Numbered from the stretch's first letter, positions 19 through 19,767 are shown. The stretch is 20,000 nt of DNA from an uncultured virus (IMG/VR IMGVR_UViG_3300021511_000004) (IMGVR_UViG_3300021511_000004), one strand, 5' to 3'. Notes: generated from the letters alone by a model not told the origin. Translations and numbers: made by a program.

Positions 19-98
19 TGGTCGGGATGAGAGGATTCGAACCTCCGACTCCGTGATCCCAGGTCACGTACTCTAATACCAGACTGAGCTACACCCCG
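19..98 (-). tRNA. tRNA-Pro (anticodon UGG) with encoded CCA and atypical C33
   Basis: Reverse complement folds as CGGGGTG TA GCTC AGTCTGGTATTA GAGT A CGTGA CCTGGGA TCACG GAGTC GGAGG TTCGAAT CCTCT CATCCCG A CCA. C1-G72, A73 and G37 are typical of tRNA-Pro. Confidence 0.93.
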
Positions 99-2132: not shown

Positions 2133-2344
2133 ATGGGAATGTTGAAAGTAGGATTATGTTTATTAGACGAGAAAGATATAGACCAGTAAAAGAAAACTGG
2201 ACTGTTAATATTACCAGAGATTTAAATAATATATATGTAACAGACGAAATTTCTAAGATACTAACTGAAAGTTTTAAACTTGAACTTGAACCGAAAACTA
2301 TAAAAGAAATGTTAGTGGAGGTAAAAGAAAAATGGGCGAACTAG
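2133..2344 (+). pseudogene. Frameshifted paralog of 2332..2592 (capsid-fragment-like small protein)
   Basis: AAGGAG RBS then ATG 2133 gives MGMLKVGLCLLDEKD (matches FKFALCILDEDD in the next gene) and stops at 2187-2189. The frame of ORF 2156..2344 continues the similarity (WT...DEI..I....K.EL....IKEML). Confidence 0.7.
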
Positions 2345-2592
2345 GAAAAAAGATAACAGTAAAAGAAACTGAAACAAAACGATTTAAATTTGCATTATGT
2401 ATTTTAGATGAGGATGATAACATAGTTAAGATGCATGGGATAAATACTAAATGGACTGCTGTTAGTGAAGGATTTTTGGGAGAAAAGTTTAATGTTGATA
2501 TACATGATGAAATCGCAAATATTATATCAAATGAATTGAAAAAAGATTTAACTCCAGAAGTTATTAAGGAGTTACTGAAAGGGTTAACTTAA
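2332..2592 (+). CDS. Hypothetical protein with a gp23 capsid-like segment
   Basis: GGAGG RBS; paralog of the upstream gene; KWT...DIHDEIANIISNELKKDL resembles the T4-type major capsid helix. Confidence 0.7.
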   Translation: MGELGKKITVKETETKRFKFALCILDEDDNIVKMHGINTKWTAVSEGFLGEKFNVDIHDEIANIISNELKKDLTPEVIKELLKGLT

Positions 2593-4055: not shown

Positions 4056-4787
4056 TTATTCTTCGCCTGAAAATGGAGTATTATCTGGCTGTGGAGTATC
4101 AGCAATACTTTCTTTGATTTTCTCAGCTAAGTTTGCTGATAGAACTGGATTGTTGGGCCGGTATTCCTTTTTCTTTTTTTGTGGTTTCGCTTTTTTTGGA
4201 ATGTTAGAAGTGAATCCAAGTTGTTCACAATGTTTACAAGGAGTCGTTGATTTGATTTCGTGATCCGGAACGACTTTTGGTATTTTTCCTTTACCACGAC
4301 ATTCAACACATTTTATATAAACTTCTCCTTCACCACCACATGTTTGACAGGTGACATTGATACCACCTCCACCTTTCCATCTTTTTTGAAATCTACCTGT
4401 ACCTTTACATTTTCTGCACTTGACTTTAATTTTCTTTTTTCCAGCGCAGATATGGCAGTTGACTTTTACAGTCTTGCGTTTAAATTTATAAATTTCGCCT
4501 GTACCTCTACAAGCAATACAGGTGTTCTCAAATGGCGAGATAATTTCAAAATATCTCTGTGCTTTCATTTGAGACGATACCAGAAGTTGTATCAATTGAT
4601 TTTTTGCCTCAATAAAAGGGTCGATTTCATCTAATTCGCCATTTTCTTTTTTAACCCAATAGTTTGCCTCAAAACATTTTAAGATATGTTCTGGAGTATA
4701 ATCAGCGCCAACTCCCAATAATTTTTCAAATTCAAATATAGTTTCGTCGGGTTGGTCTTGAGTGACAACTTCCTGTTCAATGGGCAT
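4056..4787 (-). CDS. DnaJ-type cysteine-rich zinc-finger repeat protein without a J-domain
   Basis: Six CxxC units (CIACRGTG, CHICAG, CRKCKGTG, CQTCGGEG, CVECRGKG, CKHCEQLG); AAGGAG RBS; no HPD motif. Confidence 0.8.
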   Translation of the reverse strand: MPIEQEVVTQDQPDETIFEFEKLLGVGADYTPEHILKCFEANYWVKKENGELDEIDPFIEAKNQLIQLLVSSQMKAQRYFEIISPFENTCIACRGTGEIYKFKRKTVKVNCHICAGKKKIKVKCRKCKGTGRFQKRWKGGGGINVTCQTCGGEGEVYIKCVECRGKGKIPKVVPDHEIKSTTPCKHCEQLGFTSNIPKKAKPQKKKKEYRPNNPVLSANLAEKIKESIADTPQPDNTPFSGEE

Positions 4788-5061: not shown

Positions 5062-5406
5062 ATGAATTTACAGGAATATGAAGTCATTTGCAATAAGTGT
5101 GATGGCGAAGGAGCTATCCATTCTGATGATCCACAGGGGGCGAGTGTTACATGCCCAAAATGTGACGGCGAAGGAAAAGTAGACTGGGTATCTAATGCTA
5201 TGGAAGGTGTATTATCTTTCAATAAATTACATGGAACTTTTACTTCAATTAATCCATGTGCTGATATAAACTTTCAAGTTGAGGGTAAAGAACTGTTGAG
5301 AATTACAAAAGATGCATTTTATATAAAAGGAAGGAAGGTTGTGAATGATGATAAAATATATAATGCGTTTGTTGATTTTTTTAAACAGACCGGAACTTAT
5401 ATCTAA
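5062..5406 (+). CDS. Small DnaJ-type zinc-finger protein (CxxCxGxG twice plus KxDW), paralog 1
   Basis: CNKCDGEG...CPKCDGEGKVDWVSNAM; AAGGA RBS. Confidence 0.8.
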   Translation: MNLQEYEVICNKCDGEGAIHSDDPQGASVTCPKCDGEGKVDWVSNAMEGVLSFNKLHGTFTSINPCADINFQVEGKELLRITKDAFYIKGRKVVNDDKIYNAFVDFFKQTGTYI

Positions 5407-5418
5407 GGAGGAAAATAT

Positions 5419-8400
5419 TTGATTTCAATAAAAAATTCGTTTGCAAATTGCTCAGTTTGTGATCTTTTAGATGCACCATCATGTATTCTTGAGACAAATT
5501 GTAAAAGTGATATTACTAAGGTTGATGTTGTTTTTATTGCGGAAAATCCTGGAAAAGATGAAGTTAAAAAAGGAAGTCCTTTAATAGGAAAAGCAGGAAA
5601 AAAGTTCCGAAAATATTTTGAGAGATTCGGAATAAATAAAATGAATTATTTATTAACTAATGTTGTTTTATGTCAAACAAAGAATCTAGATGGAACAACT
5701 GGTAATCCCACTAAAGAAGTCATAGAATTATGTAAAGATAATTGTATGCAAATTATTAAGGCATGTAATCCTAAATTAGTTGTATTAATGGGAACCAGTC
5801 CAATGTCAGCATTCGGAATTGCGAAAGCAGGAATTACAAATATTCATGAAAGATACGAGCTATTTGATTGGGAAGGATATAAAACTATGATTATTGTACA
5901 CCCTTCGTTTGTCAATAGAAATCAATCATGGGAACCTAAATTCTCTGAAGCAATGTCTAGAATCTCTGAGATGTTAGGAGGGAAAAAAATGGAGATAGCA
6001 GTTGAATCGAAAGCTAAATCGTTAGGTAAAGGGATTCATAGATATAGAATTCCAGATAAGTTTTATACTGAGAATTATAGATTAATTAATGTTCAATTTT
6101 TAAATAAGACAAGTCAAGTCTTATATATTTTCAGAGATAAAGATAATAATAAAGTATTTCATAAAGAAAATGATGATTACATTTGTTATCAAGCTCCTAA
6201 GGGAGTTGAAACAAGAAAACTTGTACCATATGAAAAATTAAATCAAATATCAATTAAATTTAAAGATAGATATAATCTAGATTCAAATATAACATATGAA
6301 GGTGATGTAAGAATTGCAACTAAACATGCTATGGATTACTATCATTATAATAAGGGAGAGTGTAAGAAAACTAAATCTAATATCATGTTCTTTGATATTG
6401 AAATTGACACTGGAGACGAACGAGTGTTCCCCAAACCAGAAGATGCAGCATTCCCAATTAATATGTTGACAACAATTCATAATGGTGAAAAAATATGTTA
6501 TGTAATTGATAATAAGACTGAACCGATAATAAAGAGACAAGATGTTGAATATAAAATCTTTGCTAATGAAAAGAAATTTCTACAAACGTTCATTAAAGAT
6601 TTTAAAGATACAGCCCCAGACTTTCTTGCTGGGTGGAATTGTATTAGCTTTGACCTTTCATATATTTATAATAGATTACCTCAGATTGGAATGCAACAGA
6701 CAAGCATGACATCTTTTGGTGAATTTTATATTGATGCTTCTAAGTTTGTATGCCATATACCTGGAACTGTAGCAGTAGATCAGGATTTCTTATATCGGAC
6801 ATTTACATTTACAAAAATGGAAAATTATAAGTTGGGGTTTATTGCTGATCATGAACTTGATGGTTATACAAAACTTGATTTGCCTTTACCATTCAATGAA
6901 ATGTACTGGAAGATGTTGAATAAAACAATTGAATACAACATCAGAGATACAGAATTGCTTGAGAAATTAGATGAAAAATTAGCTCATATCAATCTTTTGA
7001 ATGAGTTGAGAATTATTTGTAAAGCCAACTTTGAATCTACTTCATCATTTGGTCAGATTGACTCTTTAATGGTTTCGTATGCTAAGAACAAAGGAATAGC
7101 ATCAAAGAATAGTGATCCTCATATTGTTAAAGAAGAATATCCAGGAGCATTTGTATTTGAACCAATACCGGGAGTATATGATTGGATTACAGACTTTGAC
7201 TTTGCATCTCTATATCCAAGTTTAATGATAACATATAATATTGGAGTTAATAGTTTTGTAATGAAAACTGAAGACCCAAGTATGGGATATGATCTTGTTT
7301 ATGATAAAGAAAATTTACCAGATGTAATTAATGTTATAATCGACCCTTTATATGAAGCAAAAGTTGTACAAATGAATACAAAAGAATTGTATAAAATCAT
7401 ACAAAAGAAAGAACTAATTCATACAATCAACGGGTGTTTCTTTCACCCTCATAAGAAAGAATTTTCTATGTTTGGTGAGGTTGTTAATATGTTAATGACT
7501 TCAAGAAAGGGCTATAAAGGAAAGATGTTTGATGCAATTGAAGAAAAAGATAAAGACGAAGAAACATTTTATTACATAAGACAGTTAGTATATAAGGTGT
7601 TGGCAAATACACTATATGGAGTTGTTGCAAATAAAGCATTTAGATTTTTTGATACATCTTTAGCATCAGCTGTTACTCTTACTGGTCAAGAAGCATTAAA
7701 GACTTCAATTGTTCAGGGTGATGCTTATATGAGACATCTTGATACAGGAAGACCATTTGTTGAACCAACAAAAATTACAAAAGAAGAAATGTTTGCAAAT
7801 AAAATGCCTAAAAGAAGTAATGAGTATATCATAACTGGAGATACTGATTCAATTTTTTGTTGTTTTGAAAATTTCAGTGATGATCTATCAGTTGGAAATC
7901 TTCATGATTGGTGTGAGCAAATTGAAAACTTTTTAAATGAAGAGAAGATGATTGATGTAGTTAAAAGTCATAACGTTGATTTGGAGTTTAACAGACTGAA
8001 GTTGAAAAATGAATTGGTTATATCACGGGGTTTATTCTTAGCCAAGAAACGTTATGCTATTCGAGTTATTAATAATGAAGGCAAAGATGTTGATAAAATT
8101 AACTATATGGGTGTTGAAATTAAGAGATCAGATTACCCAAGGAAATCAAAAGAATTTTTAGTTGAGCTCTTGGACTTATTATTAAAATCAAAGAGAGTTT
8201 CATTAAATAAATTGATGGAGTTTGTTAATAGAGAAGAACAAAACTTCATTAAAGCAATTTTAGATGGTGATAAGAGTATTGCTCGACCTGTATCATATGG
8301 AAAGAAATTAAAAGATTATAAACTTGTTCCACAGGGAGTGAAAGCAATGGAGAATTGGAACACGTTAATGTATGATATTCATAAAACTGGCAATAAAGCA

Positions 8401-8649
8401 TATATGTACTGGGTTCAAGGTATTGATCTTGAAAAAGCTCCAAAAGACGTACAAGAAAAATATCATAAGTTTGTGAAGGATGGAAATAAGTTAGAAGTAA
8501 TTGCCATTCCAGATGAAGAACCACGGTTACCTAATTTCTTTATTCCAAATAAACAAGCAGCATTAAAATTTACGTTTAATAATAGGTATGAATTGATGTT
8601 AAAACCTTTAGATGTTAAGGTGAAAAGTAAGGAAGTTCTAACTTTCTAA
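5419..8649 (+). CDS. polB: Family-B DNA polymerase with an N-terminal family-4 uracil-DNA glycosylase domain
   Basis: UDG: CSVC, AENPG, GKAG, TNVVLC, ELC, HPS. Exonuclease: DIE, GWNCISFD, YNIRD. Polymerase: DFASLYPS, KVLANTLYG, TGDTDS, KKRY. TTG start with AAGGAGG RBS. Confidence 0.95.
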   Translation: MISIKNSFANCSVCDLLDAPSCILETNCKSDITKVDVVFIAENPGKDEVKKGSPLIGKAGKKFRKYFERFGINKMNYLLTNVVLCQTKNLDGTTGNPTKEVIELCKDNCMQIIKACNPKLVVLMGTSPMSAFGIAKAGITNIHERYELFDWEGYKTMIIVHPSFVNRNQSWEPKFSEAMSRISEMLGGKKMEIAVESKAKSLGKGIHRYRIPDKFYTENYRLINVQFLNKTSQVLYIFRDKDNNKVFHKENDDYICYQAPKGVETRKLVPYEKLNQISIKFKDRYNLDSNITYEGDVRIATKHAMDYYHYNKGECKKTKSNIMFFDIEIDTGDERVFPKPEDAAFPINMLTTIHNGEKICYVIDNKTEPIIKRQDVEYKIFANEKKFLQTFIKDFKDTAPDFLAGWNCISFDLSYIYNRLPQIGMQQTSMTSFGEFYIDASKFVCHIPGTVAVDQDFLYRTFTFTKMENYKLGFIADHELDGYTKLDLPLPFNEMYWKMLNKTIEYNIRDTELLEKLDEKLAHINLLNELRIICKANFESTSSFGQIDSLMVSYAKNKGIASKNSDPHIVKEEYPGAFVFEPIPGVYDWITDFDFASLYPSLMITYNIGVNSFVMKTEDPSMGYDLVYDKENLPDVINVIIDPLYEAKVVQMNTKELYKIIQKKELIHTINGCFFHPHKKEFSMFGEVVNMLMTSRKGYKGKMFDAIEEKDKDEETFYYIRQLVYKVLANTLYGVVANKAFRFFDTSLASAVTLTGQEALKTSIVQGDAYMRHLDTGRPFVEPTKITKEEMFANKMPKRSNEYIITGDTDSIFCCFENFSDDLSVGNLHDWCEQIENFLNEEKMIDVVKSHNVDLEFNRLKLKNELVISRGLFLAKKRYAIRVINNEGKDVDKINYMGVEIKRSDYPRKSKEFLVELLDLLLKSKRVSLNKLMEFVNREEQNFIKAILDGDKSIARPVSYGKKLKDYKLVPQGVKAMENWNTLMYDIHKTGNKAYMYWVQGIDLEKAPKDVQEKYHKFVKDGNKLEVIAIPDEEPRLPNFFIPNKQAALKFTFNNRYELMLKPLDVKVKSKEVLTF

Positions 8650-8668
8650 TTAGAACATAATAATGAAA
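8650..8668 (+). promoter_or_regulatory. GAACA-type putative phage promoter upstream of queE
   Basis: TTAGAACATAATAATGAAA in a 29-nt intergenic gap; resembles the motif at 1082, 5038, 11828 and 15394. Confidence 0.45.
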
Positions 8669-8678
8669 GGGGAATATA

Positions 8679-9344
8679 ATGGAAGAAGTTAAACTTATTG
8701 AGAATTTTGTGAGTTGGCAAGGGGAAGGTCCCGATAGTGGGCAAGCAATGATTATATTGAGATTTAAAACATGTAATTTGAAATGTCCTTGGTGTGATAC
8801 CTCTGTTAAAATGAGAATATCAGCTGAGGCTCCATATAAGTTAGAGGATATTCAACAAAGTATTTATAAAAATAAAGCAGGTATTCTTATAACAGGTGGA
8901 GAACCAACAGTGCCAAGGCATATTGATGAAGCAGCAGCATTATTGAATGAACTTCGTTATCCAGTTGCTAATGTCGAATCAAATGGATTTCAACTTGAAC
9001 AACTGATACAGAAAACAAAACATGAAGATAATATCCGCTTTATGTACTCACCTAAATTTTTTAATCACAAAGATCTTGGTTCTGCAATATCAAAAACAAG
9101 AGACCTCATAAATTATTCTAATCTATACATTAAAATTGTTTACGAAGACAAACCAATAGTGCATGAGTATCTTGACTGGTTATCATCACAAATTAAATTA
9201 GATAGAGCAAATAAGGTCTGGATTATGCCGGAAGGTGTTACAAGAGTTGACTTAATTAAAAATTCCGAAAAAGTGTTTAATGCATGTGAGAAGTACAAAT
9301 TTAATTTTTCATCAAGAGATCATATTATATTCGGTTTTGTATAA
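8679..9344 (+). CDS. queE: 7-carboxy-7-deazaguanine synthase-like radical SAM enzyme
   Basis: ENFVSWQGEG, LRFKTCNLKCPWCDT (CxxxCxxC), ITGGEP, VESNG, SPK, IMPEG and C-terminal RxH. Confidence 0.88.
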   Translation: MEEVKLIENFVSWQGEGPDSGQAMIILRFKTCNLKCPWCDTSVKMRISAEAPYKLEDIQQSIYKNKAGILITGGEPTVPRHIDEAAALLNELRYPVANVESNGFQLEQLIQKTKHEDNIRFMYSPKFFNHKDLGSAISKTRDLINYSNLYIKIVYEDKPIVHEYLDWLSSQIKLDRANKVWIMPEGVTRVDLIKNSEKVFNACEKYKFNFSSRDHIIFGFV

Positions 9345-9353
9345 GAAAGGGAG

Positions 9354-9743
9354 GTGATCGAGATTCAGGCATCTAGTTATCATAAACATTATTATCCAGA
9401 TGAGCATTCTGGAATATGTGTTGTTCGTCGCAAAGGTGAAAAAGATGAAGACTTCATTAAGAGATTTCGTAAGAAATTTTCAAAAAGTGGTCTTGCTAAA
9501 GAAGTACGAGATCGAATGTTCTTTGAAAAACCTAGTGATAAAAAGCGACGTAAGAAAGCTCAATCCATCAGGATGATAAAAAGAGATAAAGAAAAGCTCA
9601 TTGAAATGCATGAGCGTTACAAACGTATGAAGTTAAAAAGAAAAAGACAACAAGCTAAAGAAAGAAAAGCTAAAGGAGATAGATATGATCAACGCACTAG
9701 CAGACAAGATAGTAGTAGAGTTTCTGAGAACGACAAAGAGTGA
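9354..9743 (+). CDS. rpsU: Ribosomal protein bS21 with N- and C-terminal extensions (start possibly ATT 9363)
   Basis: VVRRKGEKDEDFIKRFRKKFSKSGLAKEVRDRMFFEKPSDKKRRKK is the bS21 signature. Confidence 0.88.
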   Translation: MIEIQASSYHKHYYPDEHSGICVVRRKGEKDEDFIKRFRKKFSKSGLAKEVRDRMFFEKPSDKKRRKKAQSIRMIKRDKEKLIEMHERYKRMKLKRKRQQAKERKAKGDRYDQRTSRQDSSRVSENDKE

Positions 9744-10035
9744 GGGAGGATTAATAATTCCTGATATAGCTCAAGATCCTCAAGGTTATGGCAAAGTACT
9801 TTCAGTTGGGGAAGATGTAAAGATTATCAAAGAAGGTGACGTTCTTGTTTTTCATATGAGAGCGGGAATGGATTTAATTCTTAATGATAAAGTCCAAAAA
9901 TGTTTGAAAGCTGAGGAAGTATATGGTATTCTGGAAGATGAAGAACTTATAAGCAGACTTGCACCTCTTGAGTTTAAAGCAAAAGAAGAACAGTCAAAAA
10001 TAGTTAAACCAGGAGGGGGTGTTATAATTGCTTAA
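9685..10035 (+). CDS. groES: Co-chaperonin GroES (Cpn10)
   Basis: ALADKIVV, KSEGGLIIPD mobile loop, GKVLSVG, IKEGDVLVF, EEVYGIL; AAGGAG RBS. Confidence 0.88.
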   Translation: MINALADKIVVEFLRTTKSEGGLIIPDIAQDPQGYGKVLSVGEDVKIIKEGDVLVFHMRAGMDLILNDKVQKCLKAEEVYGILEDEELISRLAPLEFKAKEEQSKIVKPGGGVIIA

Positions 10036-10828
10036 TCTGCAACATATAGAGGCCACCAGCTTGAATGATACATGGTTTCAAACATTATTTAAAATGCTTG
10101 AAGAAGGTACAGTATTCAAAATTGATCGTGGCTCAAATGCTGGCCAGAAACGCTTAGAGTTTGATTGGATTACTTTACATATAAACAATCCAGGCGTTCG
10201 TCCATTACTACCGCAAATTGAGGATCATTATGGTATTCCTAATCCAGTAAAGGATGACTATCTAGATGATTATCTACCATATTTAATGACTGCAGAATTA
10301 AAACCAACAGAGTCATATACATATGGTCAAAGGTTGACAGGATATCCAGTTAAATATCCTTTACAATTATGTAAGGAAGGTCATTGGCCAGAAATTCTTA
10401 TTCATGAAGTAGAAGAGTTAATTAAACTTGGAATTATATACTCAACAGGATTTTGGCATGTAAATCAGATTGAACTTCTTATTTGGACTTATAAAAATAA
10501 GGGATTCAGAAATAATCAAATGGTTTTACAGGTAGCTCATCCATCTGATATGTTGCTTCAAGACCCACCTTGTTTACGCCATATTGATACTCGAATTCAA
10601 GATGGGAAGTTACATTTCATGCCGTATTTTCGGAGTTGGGACTTATGGGGCGGATTGCCTGCAAATCTAGGAGGAATCCAACTCTTAAAAGAATATGTTG
10701 CTGCAGAAATTGGAGTTGAAGATGGAGAAATGGTTGCTACAAGTAAGGGACTTCATATTTATGATTACTCGTTTGACCTTGCAAAATGTCTAAGAATGCG
10801 AGATGATATTCAGTTGAAAGGAGAATAA
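10028..10828 (+). CDS. thyA: Thymidylate synthase family protein (archaeal-like ThyA, dUMP-type Asn)
   Basis: YTYGQRL, DPPCL (catalytic Cys), FRSWDLWGGLPAN, GLHIY; TTG start with GGAGG RBS. Confidence 0.85.
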   Translation: MLNLQHIEATSLNDTWFQTLFKMLEEGTVFKIDRGSNAGQKRLEFDWITLHINNPGVRPLLPQIEDHYGIPNPVKDDYLDDYLPYLMTAELKPTESYTYGQRLTGYPVKYPLQLCKEGHWPEILIHEVEELIKLGIIYSTGFWHVNQIELLIWTYKNKGFRNNQMVLQVAHPSDMLLQDPPCLRHIDTRIQDGKLHFMPYFRSWDLWGGLPANLGGIQLLKEYVAAEIGVEDGEMVATSKGLHIYDYSFDLAKCLRMRDDIQLKGE

Positions 10829-10830
10829 CA

Positions 10831-11358
10831 ATGTCTACTGTTGTTGCAATTGTTGATAAAGGAAAAGTTTGGATGGGTGCTGATAGTTATGCTACAATGG
10901 AGGGTGGACAGAGAAGACGTATAATGTGTAAAAAAATGTTTGTAAATCCTCCATATCTTATTGGTCATGTTGGTAGTGTTAGAGTAGGTCAAGTTGTCAA
11001 ACCAGAGTACTTTAAAGCACCTGAAAATATTTTACAATTTCCTGATAACCTAATTAAACATTTTAGAAAGAAAGGTTGTTTGGGTATAGACTCAGATGAT
11101 CAAACTACTACAAATGGATCGAACTTTTTAATAGCTACCCCATATGGTAAATTATATGAACTTCTTGTAGATTTTCAATTAAATGAAGTTGAAGATTTTA
11201 CATCTATTGGATCAGGATCTACATTTGCGCTTGGTTCTTTATATACAACAAGAAAAAAGAAAAATCATAGAAAACGAATAATAACTGCTTTAAAAATAGC
11301 AGCTGTTTATGATATGCAAACTGGTCCTCCGTTTATAGTTGAGGAATATTTGGAATGA
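10831..11358 (+). CDS. HslV/proteasome-beta-like Ntn hydrolase
   Basis: MSTVVAI...MGADS, conserved Lys, SIGSGSTFALGSL, AAVYDMQTGPP. Confidence 0.75.
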   Translation: MSTVVAIVDKGKVWMGADSYATMEGGQRRRIMCKKMFVNPPYLIGHVGSVRVGQVVKPEYFKAPENILQFPDNLIKHFRKKGCLGIDSDDQTTTNGSNFLIATPYGKLYELLVDFQLNEVEDFTSIGSGSTFALGSLYTTRKKKNHRKRIITALKIAAVYDMQTGPPFIVEEYLE

Positions 11359-11789
11359 TGGATATTATTGTATCAGAAGATACTATTGTATTAAGAGAAG
11401 ATGAAATAATTTGTCCTGTGTGTAAAGGTGTGGGGCATACTAAAAAAAGTATATATGTCTGTGAAAAATGTGATGGTACTGGAAAAGTTGATTGGATTGC
11501 CAATGCAATGGTGAAAAAGAAGAAAGGAAGGTCATTTTTAGATGAGATAAATATAAGAAGGTTAGTTCTACATCTTAAATCTCTAGTCACCGGTCTTCAA
11601 TTTGAACCAAATGATAAAATTACTTTTGATACTCTAAAAGGAATGATGGAATCTTATCTAGACACAATGAAGAGCAGAAAAGCAATTTATGACTATAATA
11701 TCATACAATCTCCTACAAATCATTTAAACATTCATGTAAAACCAAATAGATCAATTGAAGTAGTTAATATGGAGTTTACTATAGTATAA
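11355..11789 (+). CDS. DnaJ-type zinc finger fused to a tail-sheath C-terminal-like domain, paralog 2
   Basis: CPVCKGVG...CEKCDGTGKVDWIANAM followed by INIRRL...FEPND...YL...IYDY...IHVKPNRSIEVVNMEF, a gp18 sheath C-terminal signature. Confidence 0.75.
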   Translation: MMDIIVSEDTIVLREDEIICPVCKGVGHTKKSIYVCEKCDGTGKVDWIANAMVKKKKGRSFLDEINIRRLVLHLKSLVTGLQFEPNDKITFDTLKGMMESYLDTMKSRKAIYDYNIIQSPTNHLNIHVKPNRSIEVVNMEFTIV

Positions 11790-11826
11790 AACTAACTGAT
11801 AAATGTAGATTATATGTGAAATATTT

Positions 11827-11842
11827 GGAACAAAGAATAAAT
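11827..11842 (+). promoter_or_regulatory. GAACAAA-type putative phage promoter
   Basis: GGAACAAAGAATAAAT just upstream of the AGGAGA RBS and ATG 11861. Confidence 0.45.
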
Positions 11843-11860
11843 AGATTAGGAGAATACAGA

Positions 11861-13267
11861 ATGGTTAGAAGTGGATATGTACTTGCAGGTTTTGAAACAT
11901 TAGCGACTATTATGGATTTGTTTATGACTGGGCAACGTGGAAGATTTAATGATAACTTCACAAGAGCAGAAATCTCAAATTTTCTATCTAGTACATGCTC
12001 TGGTTTTTTACATTCATACGGACAGAATTTTGCAAATAAAAAGAAGTATGATAAATACAATCAAACTGAAGCAAATATGTTTAAAAAATGTAGAGACATG
12101 CAGATTTTTGATAATTGTAATTTTATCGTGGATAGCGGTGGATTTCAAATTTCAACCGGTAGATTAACAAGAAAAGAATCTGACCTTCTTCATATAATGT
12201 ATTATGATTTTATTGAAGAACATCATGAAGTATTTGATAAAGCTTTTATTTTGGATATTCCTCCGGGACCTGGTTGTGAAATTTTCAAAAATTTCTATGA
12301 TGTATATAAATTAAATCTTGAATCTTATACTAGAGCAAAAGAACTTCCAGATGAAATAAGAAAGAAACTTATTTATGTTCATCATTTCAGAACTCCTAGA
12401 TTGTGGGAAATATATACAAGAATTCTACGAGATTATGATATGTTTTCTGCATTTGAATATCATAGTACTGGTGGTATTGTGGCGAATATGTCAAGCGATA
12501 TGTCAATACCATGCATTATTTATGTCCTACCATTAATCCCTCTTATTAATGAAGCAATGAGAGACAAAAGGAATTATCTAAATTTTCATATTCTCGGAGG
12601 TGCCAACTTTAGAGACGTTTTATTTTATGAACTATTTAAAATCACAGTCAAAAAGAAACATAATTTTGATCTAAATATAACTTATGATTCATCCGGTCCA
12701 TATAAGCAAGTAATGCACGCAAGATTTTTACATGCAAAAGATGAACATAATTATATTAGAAAAATGAGTATTAAAGAAAGCGATTTAGATAAAAGATTTA
12801 TGGTTGATAAAACAACTATAGATAATTATCAAGACCTTATGAATAAAATGGCAGATAAATGGCAGTTTAAACGAATTGACATTGATGGAGTGTATGGAAT
12901 GTATGAAAATAAATCTGGAATCATGACAAGTACATTTCATGCAGACGTAAAAGCATATGCAATTTTATATGCATTGAATATTTATTCTGAAATTCATGAT
13001 GAAATGAGAGAATTTGCTGAAAAGGTGTATCCAATATATGAAGCTGGTTTACTGGAACAATTTTATCATGAATGTTTTGAAATTACAAGAACTATTAATC
13101 AAGGAAAACTAACAAAAAAACAAAAGATTAAAGCTCATAGTATTCCAAAATCTCTTGATATGTTGGGTGATTTAGATGAAGATTACTGTGAATTTTTGAT
13201 AAATAAATATTTAGCAAAAGATGAATTTGTTGAGTTAAATGAACGCAAAAAGGTGCTTACATTTTAA
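11861..13267 (+). CDS. tRNA-guanine transglycosylase-fold protein, DpdA-like DNA base-exchange candidate
   Basis: TGT motifs in order: IVDSGGFQ, ILDIPP, TGGIV, FHILGG, TYDSSG. No CxCxxC zinc site of tRNA TGTs. Start moved from 11816 to ATG 11861 because of the AGGAGA RBS at 11848-11853. Confidence 0.75.
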   Translation: MVRSGYVLAGFETLATIMDLFMTGQRGRFNDNFTRAEISNFLSSTCSGFLHSYGQNFANKKKYDKYNQTEANMFKKCRDMQIFDNCNFIVDSGGFQISTGRLTRKESDLLHIMYYDFIEEHHEVFDKAFILDIPPGPGCEIFKNFYDVYKLNLESYTRAKELPDEIRKKLIYVHHFRTPRLWEIYTRILRDYDMFSAFEYHSTGGIVANMSSDMSIPCIIYVLPLIPLINEAMRDKRNYLNFHILGGANFRDVLFYELFKITVKKKHNFDLNITYDSSGPYKQVMHARFLHAKDEHNYIRKMSIKESDLDKRFMVDKTTIDNYQDLMNKMADKWQFKRIDIDGVYGMYENKSGIMTSTFHADVKAYAILYALNIYSEIHDEMREFAEKVYPIYEAGLLEQFYHECFEITRTINQGKLTKKQKIKAHSIPKSLDMLGDLDEDYCEFLINKYLAKDEFVELNERKKVLTF

Positions 13268-13548
13268 TGGAATTAAGATATAATAAATATAAAAAAACCT
13301 TATTATCTTTGGATGAAGGTGAGGAATTTTGTAAAACATGTAATGGAGATGGTATAATAAGTTCAAAAAGAAGTTACCCTGCTCTTAATATAAGAACTGG
13401 TAATCCTTTAGTATGTAAAGATTGTTTGGGTGATGGTAAAATTGATTGGATTGAAAAAGCAATTGGCAAAAGACCACAAATACCATTTATTAATATGACA
13501 ATAGAAAGAACAAAACTTGTTCCAAGAATAAGGAAATTTAAAAGGTGA
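13267..13548 (+). CDS. Small DnaJ-type zinc-finger protein, paralog 3
   Basis: CKTCNGDG...CKDCLGDGKIDWIEKAI; C-terminal IPFINMTIERTKLVPRIRKFK. Confidence 0.8.
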   Translation: MELRYNKYKKTLLSLDEGEEFCKTCNGDGIISSKRSYPALNIRTGNPLVCKDCLGDGKIDWIEKAIGKRPQIPFINMTIERTKLVPRIRKFKR

Positions 13549-13867
13549 AAGATGAACCATATCTCAAAGAAGGAGAAGTGATTTGTGATAACTGCAATGG
13601 AGATGGAAAACTTTCAATAACTCTTGGCAGTATTACTGTCTGCACTAAATGTTGGGGGGGGCTGGAACTAGTGGTTTTGCTTTACCATTTGATGCTCCAG
13701 CAGGTTTTGATAGAAGTCATGATGATGCGATAGATGCAATGGCTAAGCAACTTGCCGATGAAATAGACAAAGAAATCTTAGAATCTATATTAGAGTCAGT
13801 GGAACAAACTAATAAATTAATGAAAATAGCAAAAACAGTGATGTATGAAATGGAGGATAAAACTTGA
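13545..13867 (+). pseudogene. Small DnaJ-type zinc-finger protein, paralog 4, split by a frameshift at a G8 tract
   Basis: ORF 13545..13733 (CDNCNGDG...CTKCWG) and ORF 13649..13867 join in frame if the G run at 13654-13661 is G6 (CTKCWGAG) or G9. Confidence 0.6.
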
Positions 13868-15463: not shown

Positions 15464-16477
15464 ATGAGTACGAAAAAATCATACATGAGCTTATTAAAAG
15501 AAGCCATCGCTGAGTTTGATACCAGTGATAATCTCGAAGTAAAGGGACCGATGCTCGACCCGATTTTGTCGTGGGACGGTGGCGGAGAACTTCCCATTTA
15601 TAAGGATGCTGCTAGTATCCTTGAAAGGTATTACTTCGAAGAAAACAACGATGATGGTGTTAATGTTATGGACGAAGGTTCAGAACTAGAAGCTGCTTAT
15701 CAAAATGATAAGGGATCAGCGTCCGGAGAAGCAATGAAAAATACTAAAGGCACAGGTACTGAACAAGCTGGTACAAGTGATGCCGCAGGCATTATAGCTT
15801 CAAAAGATGAAAAAGCTAAAGACATCGCTAAAGAAGACGTTCAAGTAGAAAAAGAAGAAAAAGAGGAAAAAGAGGAAGAAAAAGAAGTTTCTGAAGATCT
15901 AAAAATGGAAAATGCTATTATTGAAAAACTGATTTCAGAAATGGAAGATGAAGAAAAAGAAGATGAAGACAAGGAAGATAAAGAAAAAGTTGATGAAGCT
16001 GAAGTCATGAATTATACTGGCGACGGCCCAAAAGAAGAAGCTCCAAAAGAAAAGAAAGCATCAGGATCAGAGGAAGATACACAAGGTGCCGGAACTAATC
16101 AAGCAGGCACAGGTGGTGATGAAAAACAACTTCCGGATAGAAAAGATGATCATAATACAGCAGTAAAAGCTAAAGAGTATACTGATGAAAATACTATGAT
16201 CGAAGCAGCTCTAGCAGAGCTAGAATCTGAAATTTCCGAGCAAGATGCACCTCCAGCAGAACCAGAAGTTCCTGAGGAAGAAGAAAAGGAACTTGATGTT
16301 GATAAAGAAATGGCTAAAGAACAAGCACCGCCACCACCAAGTGCTGTTCCTGGTGGACCTGCTCCAGATAAAGAAGATAAAGACGAAGAGGTTTATGAAG
16401 AAGCCTTTAAACTCTTTAAAGAAGCAATAAAGGAGCAAGACGAAGAAGAAGAAGACAAAGACAAAGAAGAAGAATAA
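15464..16477 (+). CDS. Highly acidic low-complexity protein, probable prohead core/scaffold or internal head protein
   Basis: Very E/D/K-rich; repeated GxGTxQAGT; many L/I-x-E motifs; AGGAGG RBS; upstream of the portal. Confidence 0.55.
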   Translation: MSTKKSYMSLLKEAIAEFDTSDNLEVKGPMLDPILSWDGGGELPIYKDAASILERYYFEENNDDGVNVMDEGSELEAAYQNDKGSASGEAMKNTKGTGTEQAGTSDAAGIIASKDEKAKDIAKEDVQVEKEEKEEKEEEKEVSEDLKMENAIIEKLISEMEDEEKEDEDKEDKEKVDEAEVMNYTGDGPKEEAPKEKKASGSEEDTQGAGTNQAGTGGDEKQLPDRKDDHNTAVKAKEYTDENTMIEAALAELESEISEQDAPPAEPEVPEEEEKELDVDKEMAKEQAPPPPSAVPGGPAPDKEDKDEEVYEEAFKLFKEAIKEQDEEEEDKDKEEE

Positions 16478-17826: not shown

Positions 17827-19767
17827 ATGCCGAGTATTGCTAATATACTCAATAAACTCAAGACAACAATTGTCCAAACACAGACAAAGAAAATTGATGA
17901 TAAACTTGACCAAGCTGTTAAGGATATTGTTGCATATAAAAGTCATTCAGGTAGAAACGGTTATATTGAGTTAGTCCGTAGTTTAGTTTCAAAGACTGCT
18001 GATATTAAAATTTCAGGAATTAGTGGCGGAGGCCTCTTCTCACAAGGTGTGAGTCCAACAGCCTTTGGACAAGGTTCTAGAATAATGAGGTATAAAGCGT
18101 ATCAAGCAATTGTATCTCAAATCAACTATGCTACAAGAGCGCTCAATGTTTTGGTTGATAATATTTTATCACCCGATGATATTACAAAACAAGCTCTTGA
18201 GGTAAAGCCAAAATTATTTCTAACTGATGAAGCACCAGTTGCATCTAAAGTTAGATATGTTAAAGAAGTTATAGAGCAAATCGACTTAGAACGAAGGTTA
18301 GATTTAATTGCCAGAAATACATTGTTATATGGAGATTTGTTTTGTGAGTTAGCTGGTCCAAAAACTGCATTAACTAGCCATTCACTTCTAACAGAAGGAA
18401 GTCAATATCGACAAACAATAAATGATCAATATGAATCTGGAGCCAGAGAACGAATTATTCACAATGTTGGAAAGAACAAATATGAATTTAATTTAGATTA
18501 CTCTGCTCTAACTGAAGCTGGAGCAGATACTCCAACACCAAAAACCAAGAAAAAAGAAAAACAAAAAAGAAAAACTTTAGCAAATCTACAATTAGTATTT
18601 CATGATCCTCAATTTGTTGTTAAACTTCAAAGTGCCATGTTTCCAATTTGTTTTGGTTATTTGATATTTCCTATACGAGCAGCTATGCCAGGTACAGCAT
18701 TAGCAGACGAAGCAATTAATAATATTTGTGTTTCAATTATAAAAAGTTTACAAGATAAAATTCCTCAAATGAAAGAATTTGAGGGTGATGCAGAATTAAA
18801 AGATATTCTTAGCGCTTTAGTTAGTAATGCTGATATTAATAAAGCTATGGATATTAGATATGTTCCACCGGATACAATGATTCATTTCATGGTACCAACA
18901 ACTAAATATTATCCATACGGAGAATCAATTTTTGATAGCACACAGTATGCTTCTAAAGTCTTTATATCTCTTGAAACTGCATTGGCTGTTCAAAGATTAT
19001 CAAGATCAACAGAGAAACGAAAAATTGCTATTGAAATTGGTTTGCCAAGAGATGCAAGAAAAGCTATTGAGTTAATGAAAGAAGAGTTTAGAAAAAGAAA
19101 AATCAGTCTTGATAGTTTTGGAACTGTTGATACAATTCCAAGTATGATTACAACTTTTGAAGATGTTTATATTCCTCAAAAAGATGGGAAATCATTTGTT
19201 GACATTTCAACATTCAATGAAGGAAATGTAGATGTCAGAAGTAAAGTAGATGAATTAAAATTTTTGAGAGACCAAATGGTATCTAGTTTGGGTGTTCCGC
19301 CTAGTTTTCTTGGTATTGAGGAAAATTTAAGCAATAAAGCAGCCCTTTCAGAAGAAAATATTTTGTTTGCTAGAACAGTCATTGGTCACCAAAAATATTT
19401 GACACATCAAATAACTGAGTTAATTCAAAAAGTTTTCGATATAATCGATCCAGAAGAAGCCCTTACAATATTAGACCATGTTGATGTTGCATTACCTATG
19501 CCTAGATCGTTACAATTTGAAAGAGAAGCTAGGTATATGAATGAACTTTCTACTCTAGTGGAAAATCTTGAAAGAATTGGAATTCCGAAAGAATACTCTA
19601 CACGCAAATATCTATCTCAAATTGATTGGGATGAAGTTAAGAAATATGATATTGACCAGAAAATTGATCAAACTCTTGATCCATCTAAGAAAGAAGATGA
19701 CGGAATGGGTGGAATGGGTGGAATGGGAGGTCTTGGGGGTGCAGGTGGATTCGGAGGTGGAATGTAA
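17827..19767 (+). CDS. Portal vertex protein (T4 gp20-like)
   Basis: YGESIFD, RSTEKRKIAIEIG, FEDVYIPQKDG, DELKFLRDQMVSSLGVPPSFL match the gp20 pattern (RAPERR..YIDVG, EDYWLP, L.VP.SRL); AAGGAG RBS. Confidence 0.85.
   Translation: MPSIANILNKLKTTIVQTQTKKIDDKLDQAVKDIVAYKSHSGRNGYIELVRSLVSKTADIKISGISGGGLFSQGVSPTAFGQGSRIMRYKAYQAIVSQINYATRALNVLVDNILSPDDITKQALEVKPKLFLTDEAPVASKVRYVKEVIEQIDLERRLDLIARNTLLYGDLFCELAGPKTALTSHSLLTEGSQYRQTINDQYESGARERIIHNVGKNKYEFNLDYSALTEAGADTPTPKTKKKEKQKRKTLANLQLVFHDPQFVVKLQSAMFPICFGYLIFPIRAAMPGTALADEAINNICVSIIKSLQDKIPQMKEFEGDAELKDILSALVSNADINKAMDIRYVPPDTMIHFMVPTTKYYPYGESIFDSTQYASKVFISLETALAVQRLSRSTEKRKIAIEIGLPRDARKAIELMKEEFRKRKISLDSFGTVDTIPSMITTFEDVYIPQKDGKSFVDISTFNEGNVDVRSKVDELKFLRDQMVSSLGVPPSFLGIEENLSNKAALSEENILFARTVIGHQKYLTHQITELIQKVFDIIDPEEALTILDHVDVALPMPRSLQFEREARYMNELSTLVENLERIGIPKEYSTRKYLSQIDWDEVKKYDIDQKIDQTLDPSKKEDDGMGGMGGMGGLGGAGGFGGGM

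What the first reader, a model, noticed from the sequence alone, without database searches (positions are those of the whole stretch)
5062..13867. Family of DnaJ-zinc-finger cassettes each fused to a different virion-protein-like fragment
Seen: four genes (5062, 11355, 13267, 13545) share CxxCxGxG-x-CxxCxGxG, three with a following K(V/I)DW(V/I)xxA, but their tails are unrelated. The 11355 tail is a clear tail-sheath C-terminal signature (INIRRL, FEPND, KPNRSIE). The 13267 tail (IPFINMTIERTKLVPRIRKFK) resembles the gp23 strand before RxLKA. The 13649 segment (MAKQLADEIDKEILESI) resembles the gp23 EIxxEIxREI helix. The 5062 tail (INFQVEGKELLRI) weakly resembles a tail-fibre repeat. Inference: a modular carrier-plus-bait system displaying structural epitopes, for example decoys for defence sensors of virion proteins, assembly chaperone adaptors, or dominant-negative inhibitors of competing phages. 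I know of no described system like this.
Basis: partly seen in the sequence, partly recalled or inferred. Interest (0 to 1): 0.8.

Follow-up and report, generated by a model that had tools for sequence, protein, structure and literature searches.

The report
Zinc-finger proteins carrying virion-protein fragments
An uncultured large phage and its relatives encode many small proteins that share a zinc-binding head, and some of them carry old copies of pieces of the phage's own capsid, tail-sheath or tail-fibre proteins; their role is unknown.

Summary
The motif family is real. Five window ORFs carry paired CxxCxG knuckles, against 0 in 200 shuffles.

- **11355 tail:** a true homologue of the C-terminal tail-sheath domain. 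It matches 857 phage sheath genes (best E 8e-9), has a sheath-like fold, and orthologues are 41-74% identical.
- **13545 and 13649:** one gene, broken by a G8 frameshift and lacking the KxDW motif. Its helix resembles the major capsid protein (gp23) helix modestly (E 0.011-0.028; profile E 1e-4).
- **13267 tail:** not significant, and not kept in 3 of 3 near orthologues.
- **5062 tail:** not fibre-like. It is a small domain that also occurs free-standing.

The family is large: 5012 profile hits, with tandem arrays of up to 10 genes, always among replication and nucleotide-metabolism genes. About 7-11% of tails match virion proteins at recurring places:

- gp23 residues 74-122 and 251-323
- sheath residues 4-20 and 553-664
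- collagen-like fibres

No tail matched a family annotated with a non-virion function.

Function is untested. My best guess (0.3) is that the tails mimic assembly interfaces and bind unassembled virion subunits. Decoys for host sensors is a close rival. Four literature searches found no description.

The parts
5062..5406 (+). Family member 1 (114 aa). The zinc module is encoded at 5071-5199. The tail is a small domain of 4 strands plus a helix and is not fibre-like.
   Evidence: Pfam Anti-TRAP 36.2 bits, above the cut-off of 32. Tail against a free-standing ORF of the related phage record G001 (85045-85350), E 3.5e-8. AF2 model with tail pLDDT 73-79. One orthologue at 51% identity.
11355..11789 (+). 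Family member 2 (144 aa). The zinc module is encoded at 11394-11507. The start overlaps the stop of the HslV-like gene by 4 bases.
   Evidence: Orthologues are 68-74% identical and 135-145 aa long. L001 is 46% and L008 41% identical.
11532..11786 (+). Sheath C-terminal-domain tail of member 2 (aa 60-144).
13267..13548 (+). Family member 3 (93 aa). The zinc module is encoded at 13312-13461. The 28-aa tail has no significant match.
   Evidence: Orthologues L009, L010 and L012 end 3-17 residues after the module.
13545..13867 (+). Family member 4, disrupted. The first ORF (13545-13733) holds two knuckles but no KxDW motif. The tail continues in the -1 frame (ORF 13649-13867).
   Evidence: Single-ORF orthologues are L009:17635-18060, L010:17988-18371 and L012:11264-11668.
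13654..13661 (+). G8 run where the reading frame changes.
   Evidence: The run is identical in contigs of three runs (10-58x word depth) that may be the source samples. In a fourth run the contigs break at 13633 and 13698.
13697..13816 (+). gp23-helix-like segment of member 4.
   Evidence: gp23 profile positions 283-323, E 0.011 and 0.028. A profile of such tails against gp23 gave E 1.1e-4.
4056..4787 (-). 243-aa protein with several CxxCxGxG knuckles (DnaJ cysteine-rich domain). No J-domain was detected. It is conserved beside the polymerase gene in relatives.
   Evidence: PF00684 36.7 bits, above the cut-off of 32.7. Orthologues in L008, L009, L010 and L012.
2156..2344 (+). Free-standing 62-aa ORF with a gp23-like strand-plus-helix segment and no zinc finger.
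   Evidence: gp23 profile positions 266-315, E 3.3e-4 among 78 window ORFs.
2332..2592 (+). Free-standing 86-aa ORF with the same gp23-like segment and no zinc finger.
   Evidence: gp23 profile positions 268-315, E 2.9e-4. tblastn of gp23 aa 270-400 onto 2440-2841, E 6.3e-4.
10831..11358 (+). HslV-family peptidase gene directly upstream of member 2. The neighbourhood is conserved.
   Evidence: phrog_1040 7.7e-18. Same order in L002. In G001 the gene after the HslV-like gene is a family member with a collagen-like tail.

Best explanation
These are members of a large phage gene family. Each member has a small zinc-binding head and an exchangeable C-terminal tail. The head consists of two DnaJ-type CxxCxGxG knuckles, which probably bind one zinc ion, preceded by an acidic xEGE motif and followed by K-x-D-W-(I/V)-x-x-A.

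In some members the tail is an old copy, kept by selection, of an assembly-interface element of the phage's own most abundant virion proteins. These elements are:
- the sheath N-terminal arm
- the sheath C-terminal domain
- the N-terminal conserved motif of the major capsid protein
- the capsid protein's strand-plus-long-helix segment
- collagen-like fibre pieces

Proposed mechanism (inferred, not shown). The tail docks by mimicry onto unassembled virion subunits, at the surface where the native element of a neighbouring subunit would bind. The proteins are made from the replication-gene cluster. They would hold or cap sheath and capsid subunits, controlling the timing of assembly or blocking premature polymerisation, until real neighbours displace them. 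The conserved zinc head would supply solubility, or a common partner such as a chaperone or the adjacent HslV-like peptidase.

Shown: the family, the homology of the tails, the recurring break points, the conservation and the gene context. Inferred: all binding and any effect on assembly.
For: **Sheath pieces.**
- Both halves of the sheath subunit-to-subunit contact occur as separate fusions. gp18 aa 4-20 occurs in 4 of 231 family sequences (P0135 E 5.9e-5). gp18 aa 553/568-664 occurs in the window, L001, P0066, L032, L070, L030 and L036.
- That these sheath parts form the inter-subunit contact is established structural knowledge, which I recall and did not test here.
- The sheath-type tails start at the same junction and share deletions relative to gp18. 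Most score higher with each other than with gp18. This points to one old capture that has been maintained.
- Orthologues of 11355 keep the whole tail at 41-74% identity.

**Capsid pieces.**
- gp23 pieces fall in two places only, profile positions 74-122 and 251-323.
- In 2152 ORFs from 54 loci, all 3 gp23 hits were zinc-module proteins.

**Conserved position.**
- A helix-type member sits directly before the DnaB-like helicase gene in 7 of the 9 loci with that neighbour. This count is my reading.
- The sheath-type member follows the thymidylate-synthase-like or HslV-like genes in the window, L002, L032 and L070.

**The head.**
- Its profile matches the DnaJ cysteine-rich domain (1exk, 2.3e-8), Anti-TRAP (3lcz, 2.3e-5) and the Rubisco assembly factor BSD2 (6ekb, 7e-4).
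- The window also encodes a GroES-like protein and a multi-knuckle DnaJ-like protein.
Against: - No binding was shown.
- The genes lie among replication and nucleotide-metabolism genes, never beside virion genes. Of 76 nearest neighbours, none matched a virion-protein Pfam family apart from one further zinc-gp23 fusion.
- Copy number and tails turn over quickly. Arrays range from 1 to 10 genes. Tails at the same position are exchanged: sheath-like in the window and L008, collagen-like in G001. 13267-type tails are lost in 3 of 3 near orthologues. This pattern is more typical of conflict genes than of assembly factors.
- G001, estimated 79% complete, has no recognisable sheath-type member.
- Most tails have no recognisable source. 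91 of 102 matched no family annotated as a virion protein, though 3 or 4 of those matched only families of unknown function. Some members have no tail at all.
- The window's own helix-type copy is frameshifted.
Confidence: 0.3

Rival explanations
1. Decoys for host immunity. The tails present conserved virion-protein motifs to host sensors that recognise capsid, sheath or fibre proteins. The zinc head blocks activation, or recruits the sensor to a phage factor such as the HslV-like peptidase.
For: - The genes sit in variable arrays between conserved replication genes, with fast tail turnover.
- Sensors of phage capsid proteins exist. Avs7, Avs8 and Avs10 bind the capsid fold, while Lit and CapRel detect short capsid motifs (PMC13581612: abstract and passages read).
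- The Gol region that activates Lit lies in the first quarter of gp23 and is described as its most conserved part (PMC3014915: passage read).
- The N-terminal gp23 pieces in L001, P0139 and P0156 lie at profile positions 74-122 of 483. That this is the Gol region is my recollection and was not tested.
- The lineage's capsid protein is 84-93% identical across the 120 listed clusters, while the polymerase is 68-69% identical. Escape by mutating the capsid protein may therefore be costly.
Against: - A short trigger motif would be expected to activate, not block, motif sensors such as Lit.
- Fold-sensing Avs proteins wrap the whole capsid fold, which fragments cannot imitate.
- No sheath sensor is known; the paper lists the sheath only as a possible target.
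- Two subtypes hold a stable position across divergent phages.
- No defence gene or host context is available.
Confidence: 0.25
2. The zinc head carries the function, for example as an inhibitor or regulator of a host or phage protein. The tails are incidental. Virion-gene pieces were picked up by illegitimate recombination in a fast-evolving gene family and have no role of their own.
For: - Some members are head-only, with tails of 3-6 residues, such as L012:11091-11291, L010:17733-17987 and P0125.
- 91 of 102 tails matched no family annotated as a virion protein.
- The head is far more conserved than the tails.
- Double-module proteins and chimeras, such as P0006, P0011, P0015 and L070:5848-6267, show frequent recombination.
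Against: - The recognisable sources are only virion proteins. Of 200 tails, 8 hit gp23, 5 hit gp18 and 1 hit collagen fibres. Two hit one small unknown ORF. None hit any other protein of a 248-kb genome.
- The break points recur.
- The sheath-type tail is conserved over its whole length down to 41% identity.
Confidence: 0.2
3. Weapons against co-infecting related phages or satellites. The fragments act as dominant-negative caps on a competitor's capsid or sheath assembly, or as baits for satellite proteins that hijack virion subunits.
For: The family shows the variable, multi-copy pattern of an accessory gene family. The fragments come from the most conserved parts of the virion proteins.
Against: The capsid protein is 84-93% identical across the lineage, so a poison aimed at it could hardly spare the producer. 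The 11355 tail is equally distant (28-35% identity) from all the sheaths compared. There is no evidence of satellites.
Confidence: 0.1
4. 11355 is a minor structural protein of the tail, such as a sheath initiator or terminator, that joins the sheath through its sheath-like domain.
For: The tail has the fold and motifs of the sheath C-terminal domain. The L001 tail also weakly resembles the relative's gp25-like protein, E 0.034.
Against: It lies in the replication cluster. The relative G001 has its own gp25-like gene in the tail module and no recognisable sheath-type member. At the same position G001 has a collagen-tailed paralogue. This reading also does not explain the rest of the family.
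Confidence: 0.07

Closest known systems
DnaJ central cysteine-rich domain and its stand-alone relatives (BSD2, Anti-TRAP)
   Same: Paired CxxCxGxG zinc knuckles. The head's profile matches 1exk (2.3e-8), 3lcz (2.3e-5) and 6ekb (7e-4). These are small proteins that act by binding other proteins. That BSD2 is an assembly chaperone holding an oligomer until the final subunit arrives is recalled, not tested.
   Different: Only two knuckles, against four in DnaJ. No J-domain. A family-specific xEGE motif before the knuckles and K-x-D-W-(I/V) after them, which none of the PDB matches covers. Exchangeable tails, some taken from virion proteins.
Contractile tail sheath protein (T4 gp18; Pfam Phage_sheath_1C)
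   Same: The 11355 tail aligns to the last ~95 residues, up to the very C-terminus of the relative's gp18. It has the same order of two helices and three strands.
   Different: It lacks the other ~570 residues of a sheath subunit and is fused to a zinc finger. It is encoded in the replication cluster. It is only 28-36% identical to any sheath compared and carries deletions shared with the other fusion tails.
T4-type major capsid protein gp23 (Pfam PF07068), including its short Gol region
   Same: Tails in relatives match gp23 profile positions 74-122 (P0156 passes the Pfam cut-off, 29.1 against 24.4 bits) and 251-323 (P0053 E 8.5e-15). The window's 13649, 2156 and 2332 ORFs match 266-323 weakly.
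   Different: The pieces are 25-55 residues long and cannot form a capsid fold. That the N-terminal piece corresponds to T4's Gol peptide is recalled and not tested.
microProteins (small proteins holding one interaction domain of a larger protein, which regulate that protein by non-productive binding; known from plants and animals; recalled concept)
   Same: Small proteins whose only recognisable functional part is homologous to an interaction element of a larger protein encoded in the same genome.
   Different: Found in a phage. The targets would be virion subunits. A shared zinc head is added and the genes form tandem arrays. No binding has been shown.
Donor-strand-complementation chaperones of pilus assembly (PapD type; recalled)
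   Same: The idea of a helper that supplies the strand a subunit will later receive from its neighbour.
   Different: There is no sequence or fold relation. Here the 'strand' is a literal copy of the subunit's own arm.

Membership tests
DnaJ cysteine-rich domain (PF00684) | Repeated CxxCxGxG zinc knuckles | tested here: met
   Two knuckles in each of the four genes and several in 4056-4787. The second knuckle of 13545 reads CxxCxGG. The profile matches 1exk at 2.3e-8.
DnaJ cysteine-rich domain (PF00684) | Score over Pfam's gathering cut-off (32.7 bits) | tested here: not met
   5062 scored 24.9, 11355 19.7, 13267 21.7 and 13545 14.2 bits. Only 4056-4787 passes, at 36.7 bits.
DnaJ (Hsp40) chaperone | J-domain, and four knuckles forming two zinc centres | tested here: not met
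   No J-domain family was listed for any of the six proteins at E<=1. The small proteins have only two knuckles.
Anti-TRAP (PF15777) | Score over the cut-off (32 bits) | tested here: inconclusive
   5062 passes at 36.2 bits. 13267 (18.4), 13545 (16.1) and 11355 (12.2) do not. The match covers only the knuckles.
Anti-TRAP (PF15777) | Forms trimers and binds the TRAP protein | not testable with these tools
   No test was run. No TRAP context is available for an uncultured phage.
Phage tail sheath C-terminal domain (PF17482) | Score over the cut-off (26.9 bits) | tested here: inconclusive
   11355 scored 16.9 bits, E 0.0066. The homologous fusion in L070/G004 scored 29.3 bits and passes. PHROG sheath families scored 2.2e-6 for the window and 4.9e-16 for L032.
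Phage tail sheath C-terminal domain (PF17482) | Fold of the sheath C-terminal domain | tested here: met
   The AF2 tail is helix-helix-strand-strand-strand with pLDDT 63-84. Foldseek ranks 1-10 are sheaths except one row; E values are 0.01-0.08 and probabilities 0.89-1.00.
Complete tail sheath subunit (PF04984 plus PF17482) | N-terminal and middle sheath domains present | tested here: not met
   The protein is 144 aa long, and aa 1-55 are the zinc module.
Major capsid protein Gp23 (PF07068) | Score over the cut-off (24.4 bits) for the window's tails | tested here: not met
   PF07068 was not listed for 13267, 13545 or 13649 at E<=1. The lineage gp23 profile gave E 0.011 for 13649. The relative P0156 passes at 29.1 bits.
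gp25-like sheath initiator (PF04965) | Match to the family | tested here: not met
   Not listed for 11355 at E<=1. The relative has a separate gp25-like gene.
microProtein-type regulator | Binds and titrates the larger protein it is derived from | not testable with these tools
   Only the homology is shown. The one complex prediction gave no verdict (see Tried and rejected).

The most novel reading that the evidence does not exclude
The family is a phage-encoded library of virion-epitope baits. Each bait presents a conserved peptide of the capsid, sheath or fibre proteins to host pattern-recognition proteins before the real virion proteins appear. The shared zinc head neutralises the bound sensor, possibly by handing it to the phage's own HslV-like peptidase, whose gene is directly upstream of and overlaps a family member. 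This would be a general counter-measure to immune sensing of the core phage proteome.
Probability: 0.12. Interest if true: 0.92.

Novelty: categorically new. Interest (0 to 1): 0.8.

Why it matters
If the tails act by mimicry, this would be the first case of a phage using copies of pieces of its own virion proteins as regulators or decoys. It would be a phage counterpart of microProteins, or a new class of counter-defence.

It would also mark the elements of capsid and sheath proteins that matter most for contacts: gp23 positions 74-122 and 251-323, and sheath positions 4-20 and 553-664.

The family is large (5012 profile hits at E<=0.001) and carries no functional annotation. Even a modest functional result would therefore annotate thousands of phage genes. 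The recurring break points give directly testable constructs.

Tried and rejected
- **Whole genome of the window:** none is held. Its own gp18 and gp23 could therefore not be compared. A 248-kb relative (G001; polymerase 69% identical) served as a stand-in.
- **Near-identical DNA in cultured phages:** none found.
- **Close relatives in IMG/VR:** none found for 11355, P0053 or P0135.
- **Complex prediction:** G001 gp23 with its helix-type family member gave no verdict (score 0.00, controls not run). This is no evidence either way.
- **Cognate pairs of a sheath-type member with a full sheath:** none of four further records holds a full sheath; the records are 7-36% complete.
- **T4-type late promoter motif TATAAATA:** 2 matches against 4 expected.
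- **Sigma-70-like sites:** 57 found against 51.8 expected. Neither scan says anything about timing of expression.
- **dN/dS between L001 and L002:** the sequences are 99.5% identical, so this was uninformative.
- **Sequencing runs:** no RNA holder is listed, so there is nothing on expression. Contigs cannot show whether a minority of molecules carries G9.
- **Fold of the 5062 tail:** the model is low-confidence and matched only uncharacterised viral proteins.
- **Tail-fibre reading of 5062:** rejected.
- **Sheath-initiator reading of 11355:** considered and ranked low.
- **Earlier notes of this scan:** none.
- **Pfam PF27659:** this accession is precomputed for the 11355 cluster. It is not in the Pfam copy at hand, so its description could not be read.

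Full report
**Setting**

The window is AT-rich (26-38% G+C) and comes from a large uncultured tailed phage. The genes it encodes are:
- a family-B DNA polymerase fused to a uracil-DNA-glycosylase domain
- a QueE-like radical-SAM enzyme
- ribosomal protein S21
- a GroES-like protein
- a thymidylate-synthase-like protein
- an HslV-family peptidase
- a protein weakly similar to queuine tRNA-ribosyltransferase
- a DnaB-like helicase
- a T4-type portal protein

Cultured phages are only distant relatives. The portal is at most 28% identical over 43% of its length, and there is no DNA match. The same DNA occurs in contigs of four hydrothermal-vent metagenome runs. No whole genome is held.

IMG/VR holds relatives whose polymerase is 68-69% identical. 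One of them is a 248-kb record, G001, estimated 79% complete. I fetched it whole and used it as a stand-in. It has one gp18-type sheath (664-aa ORF), one gp23-type major capsid protein (483 aa), a gp25-like gene and four collagen-like tail-fibre genes.

**The observation in the window**

Five ORFs hold paired CxxCxG knuckles: 4056-4787 on the minus strand, and 5062, 11355, 13267 and 13545 on the plus strand. Three hold the full CxxCxGxG...CxxCxGxGK(V/I)DW(V/I) motif. None of 200 shuffles of the window held either pattern. Pfam places the knuckles with the DnaJ cysteine-rich domain and Anti-TRAP. Only 4056-4787 (PF00684) and 5062 (Anti-TRAP) pass the curated cut-offs.

An alignment of 17 modules from the window and its relatives gives the consensus xEGExxCxxCxGxG...CxxCxGxGKxDWIxxA. 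Eight columns are invariant. A profile of this alignment matches the DnaJ cysteine-rich domain (1exk, 2.3e-8), Anti-TRAP (3lcz, 2.3e-5) and BSD2 (6ekb, 7e-4). None of these matches covers the DW part.

**The four tails**

*11355.* Residues 60-144 are homologous to the C-terminal domain of contractile-tail sheath proteins.
- tblastn found 857 phage records. All 30 listed rows lie under features annotated as tail sheath or in unannotated records. The best E-value is 8e-9, and no record covers 80% of the query.
- PHROG sheath families scored 2.2e-6 and 3e-5. Pfam Phage_sheath_1C scored 16.9 bits, below its cut-off.
- The tail aligns to G001 gp18 at aa 568-663 of 664 (E 1.3e-8) and to T4 gp18 at 546-641 of 659.
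- An AlphaFold2 model built from 7 sequences is poor for the zinc head (pLDDT below 50) and moderate for the tail (63-84). The tail has two helices and three strands.
- Nine of the first ten Foldseek PDB rows are sheath proteins, at weak E-values of 0.01-0.08.
- The ESM Atlas lists several clusters of 50-180 small viral proteins carrying this domain (a lead only).
- Four homologues of the same length are 68-74% identical. L001 is 46% and L008 41% identical.

*13545/13649.* The frame changes by -1 inside a run of eight G (13654-13661). The orthologues in L009, L010 and L012 are single ORFs of 127-141 aa. The window's copy also lacks the KxDW motif, which is invariant in the 17 aligned modules. 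Contigs from three runs, which may be the source samples, show the same G8 with no difference. In a fourth run the contigs break on both sides of the G run. This copy is therefore disrupted in the DNA as assembled. The downstream ORF keeps its own ATG.

Its helix resembles the long helix of gp23.
- A gp23 profile built from 21 sequences that are 84-93% identical is narrow. It scores the window ORF at E 0.011 among 78 window ORFs and at 0.028 among 231 family sequences, at positions 283-323.
- In the other direction, a profile of 19 helix-type tails finds gp23 aa 291-318 as the best non-family hit in G001 (E 1.1e-4). The two most gp23-like sequences were left out of that profile.
- Intermediates link the two. 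P0053, P0154 and L070:5848-6267 carry a longer piece that includes the preceding strand. Their E-values are 8.5e-15, 7.7e-10 and 5e-6.

*13267.* The 28-residue tail has no match in phages at E<=1 and none to gp23. The three nearest orthologues end 3-17 residues after the module, with unrelated sequence. More distant members of this subtype (P0122, P0129, P0090) end in a strand-like piece. P0122 matches gp23 aa 252-278 only weakly (E 0.006; 0.046).

*5062.* The tail is not fibre-like.
- Phage matches cover only the zinc module.
- The tail matches a free-standing small ORF of G001 at E 3.5e-8.
- One orthologue of the same length is 51% identical.
- The AlphaFold2 model shows four strands and a helix at pLDDT 73-79. 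It matches only uncharacterised viral proteins.
- The near relatives L008-L010 have about 100 bases at this position and no such gene.

**The family beyond the window**

The module profile was searched against 1.84 billion representative proteins. It gave 5012 hits at E<=0.001 and 108 at E<=1e-10. Of the best 150, I kept the 77 that have a single module with the DW motif and at most three CxxC. The other 73, mostly multi-knuckle proteins, were dropped.

A scan of IMG/VR returned 49 loci holding 142 distinct members by the same rule. The tandem arrays are large: ten in L062, nine each in L052 and L054, six each in L030 and L039. G001 holds seven small members and one multi-knuckle protein. Tails range from 1 to about 140 residues.

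**Where the tails come from**

- *PHROG scan.* The 102 IMG/VR tails of 25 residues or more, out of 142, were scanned at E<=0.01.
  - Three matched tail sheath: L032 4.9e-16, L070 6.6e-9, L030 8e-4.
  - Three matched major head protein: L070:6091 1.9e-9, L047 1.1e-4, L072 5e-4.
  - Two matched collagen-like tail-fibre families. These are low-complexity, so caution applies.
  - Three matched a group of N-terminal pieces of long proteins, some annotated as virion structural or tail-fibre proteins.
  - Three or four matched only families of unknown function.
  - None matched a family annotated with a non-virion function.
- *BLAST against the whole six-frame ORF set of G001.* The 200 tails of 15 residues or more, out of 231 partly redundant sequences, were compared at E<1e-3 with the low-complexity filter on. 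Eight hit gp23, five hit gp18, one hit the collagen-like fibre genes and two hit the small ORF at 85045. None hit anything else.
- *gp23 positions.* Hits fall at profile positions 74-122 (P0156, P0139, L001:469-720) or 251-323. Nearly all weaker hits, up to E 1, also map to 283-323.
- *P0156.* It passes Pfam's Gp23 cut-off (29.1 bits). It also hits annotated major capsid genes of 19 cultured rhizobiophages at E 1e-3.
- *Sheath positions.* Sheath pieces are either the N-terminal arm, aa 4-20, in 4 of 231 sequences (P0135 E 5.9e-5), or the C-terminal domain.
- *Specificity.* In 2152 six-frame ORFs from 54 loci the gp23 profile hit three ORFs at E<=0.05, and all three are zinc-module proteins.
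- *Age of the sheath capture.* The sheath-type tails start at the same junction and share two deletions relative to gp18. Most score higher with each other than with gp18. This points to one old capture.

**Gene context**

The nearest non-family neighbours of the arrays were scanned against Pfam at E<=1e-4: 76 ORFs, of which 24 had a hit.
- Nine are DnaB-like helicases.
- The others are thymidylate-synthase-like, proteasome/HslV-like, NAPRTase, dCMP deaminase, dGTP diphosphohydrolase, GTP cyclohydrolase FolE2, PTPS, radical-SAM, topoisomerase, Cpn10, RNA polymerase beta, HD, metallophosphatase and DUF4326 proteins.
- None is a virion protein, apart from P0156, which is itself a zinc-gp23 fusion.

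In the window the family genes overlap their neighbours by 1-4 bases, so they look operonic. A helix-type member sits just before the helicase gene in 7 of the 9 loci with that neighbour; this count is my reading. The sheath-type member follows the thymidylate-synthase-like or HslV-like genes in the window, L002, L032 and L070.

**Interpretation**

The shared head with exchangeable tails is shown. So are the restriction of recognisable tails to virion proteins, the recurring break points and the long-term conservation of at least two subtypes. What the proteins do is not shown.

I rank highest (0.3) the reading that the tails mimic assembly interfaces and dock onto unassembled virion subunits. 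Both halves of the sheath's subunit contact, and conserved capsid elements, are the parts that were copied. The head also belongs to a domain class used by assembly chaperones.

Decoys for host sensors come a close second (0.25). The early-gene context, the array dynamics and an unusually conserved capsid protein fit this reading. The capsid protein is 84-93% identical where the polymerase is 68-69% identical. Sensors of capsid proteins are well documented (PMC13581612, abstract and passages; PMC3014915, one passage).

The reading in which the head carries the function and the tails are incidental gets 0.2. It explains the head-only members and the many unrecognisable tails. It does not explain the virion-only sources or the fixed break points.

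**Novelty**

Four full-text searches found no description of such fusions. The PHROG families that match the head are all of unknown function or carry names that reflect only the zinc finger. A Pfam accession, PF27659, is on record for the 11355 cluster, but I could not read it.

Noticed in passing
window 2156-2344 and 2332-2592 (+): Two adjacent small ORFs without a zinc finger carry the same gp23-like strand-plus-helix segment (profile positions 266-315, E about 3e-4 among 78 window ORFs). The capsid piece therefore also exists free-standing.
   Followed up: partly
window 13654-13661: A G8 run splits the fourth family gene into two frames. The run is identical in three assemblies, and contigs of a fourth run break on both sides of it. 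It could be decay, slippage or phase variation.
   Followed up: partly
window 4056-4787 (-): A 243-aa protein with several DnaJ-type knuckles and no detectable J-domain. It is conserved next to the polymerase gene in L008, L009, L010 and L012.
   Followed up: partly
window 5419-8649 (+): A family-B DNA polymerase with an N-terminal uracil-DNA-glycosylase domain in one 1076-aa ORF. The fusion is conserved at 68-69% identity in five IMG/VR contigs.
   Followed up: no
window 9354-9743 and 9685-10035 (+): A ribosomal protein S21 homologue with a long basic tail. Its ORF overlaps the start of a GroES-like gene by 59 bases in another frame.
   Followed up: no
window 8679-9344 and 11816-13267 (+): A QueE-like radical-SAM gene and a 483-aa protein weakly similar to queuine tRNA-ribosyltransferase (phrog_887, 3.8e-7). 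Together they hint at 7-deazaguanine modification of DNA. Relatives also carry FolE2 and PTPS genes near the arrays.
   Followed up: no
window 10831-11358 (+): An HslV-family peptidase gene (phrog_1040, 7.7e-18). No HslU-like partner is seen in the window. A zinc-family gene follows it in the window, L002 and G001.
   Followed up: partly
G001 gp23 (L014:1459-2910, -) and its homologues: The major capsid protein of this lineage is 84-93% identical across the 120 listed clusters from many samples, while the polymerase of the relatives is only 68-69% identical. One homologue lies on a 255-kb contig that its source labels as a Thorarchaeota genome bin.
   Followed up: no
L070:5848-6267: A chimera. 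A piece like sheath aa 540-562 lies in frame upstream of the zinc module (E 0.003), and a gp23 piece (positions 262-318) follows it. A sheath-C-type member lies 1.4 kb upstream in the same locus.
   Followed up: partly
P0006, P0011, P0015: Proteins with two complete zinc modules, each followed by its own tail. They look like fused neighbours from a tandem array.
   Followed up: no
window 15464-16477 and 17827-19767 (+): A very acidic 337-aa protein with no family match lies upstream of the portal gene. The portal ends in a glycine- and methionine-rich tail.
   Followed up: no
window 19-98 (-) and 123-1046 (-): A tRNA-Pro (anticodon TGG) and a nicotinate phosphoribosyltransferase gene lie on the opposite strand at the left end. 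This stretch has higher G+C (38%) than the rest of the window.
   Followed up: no
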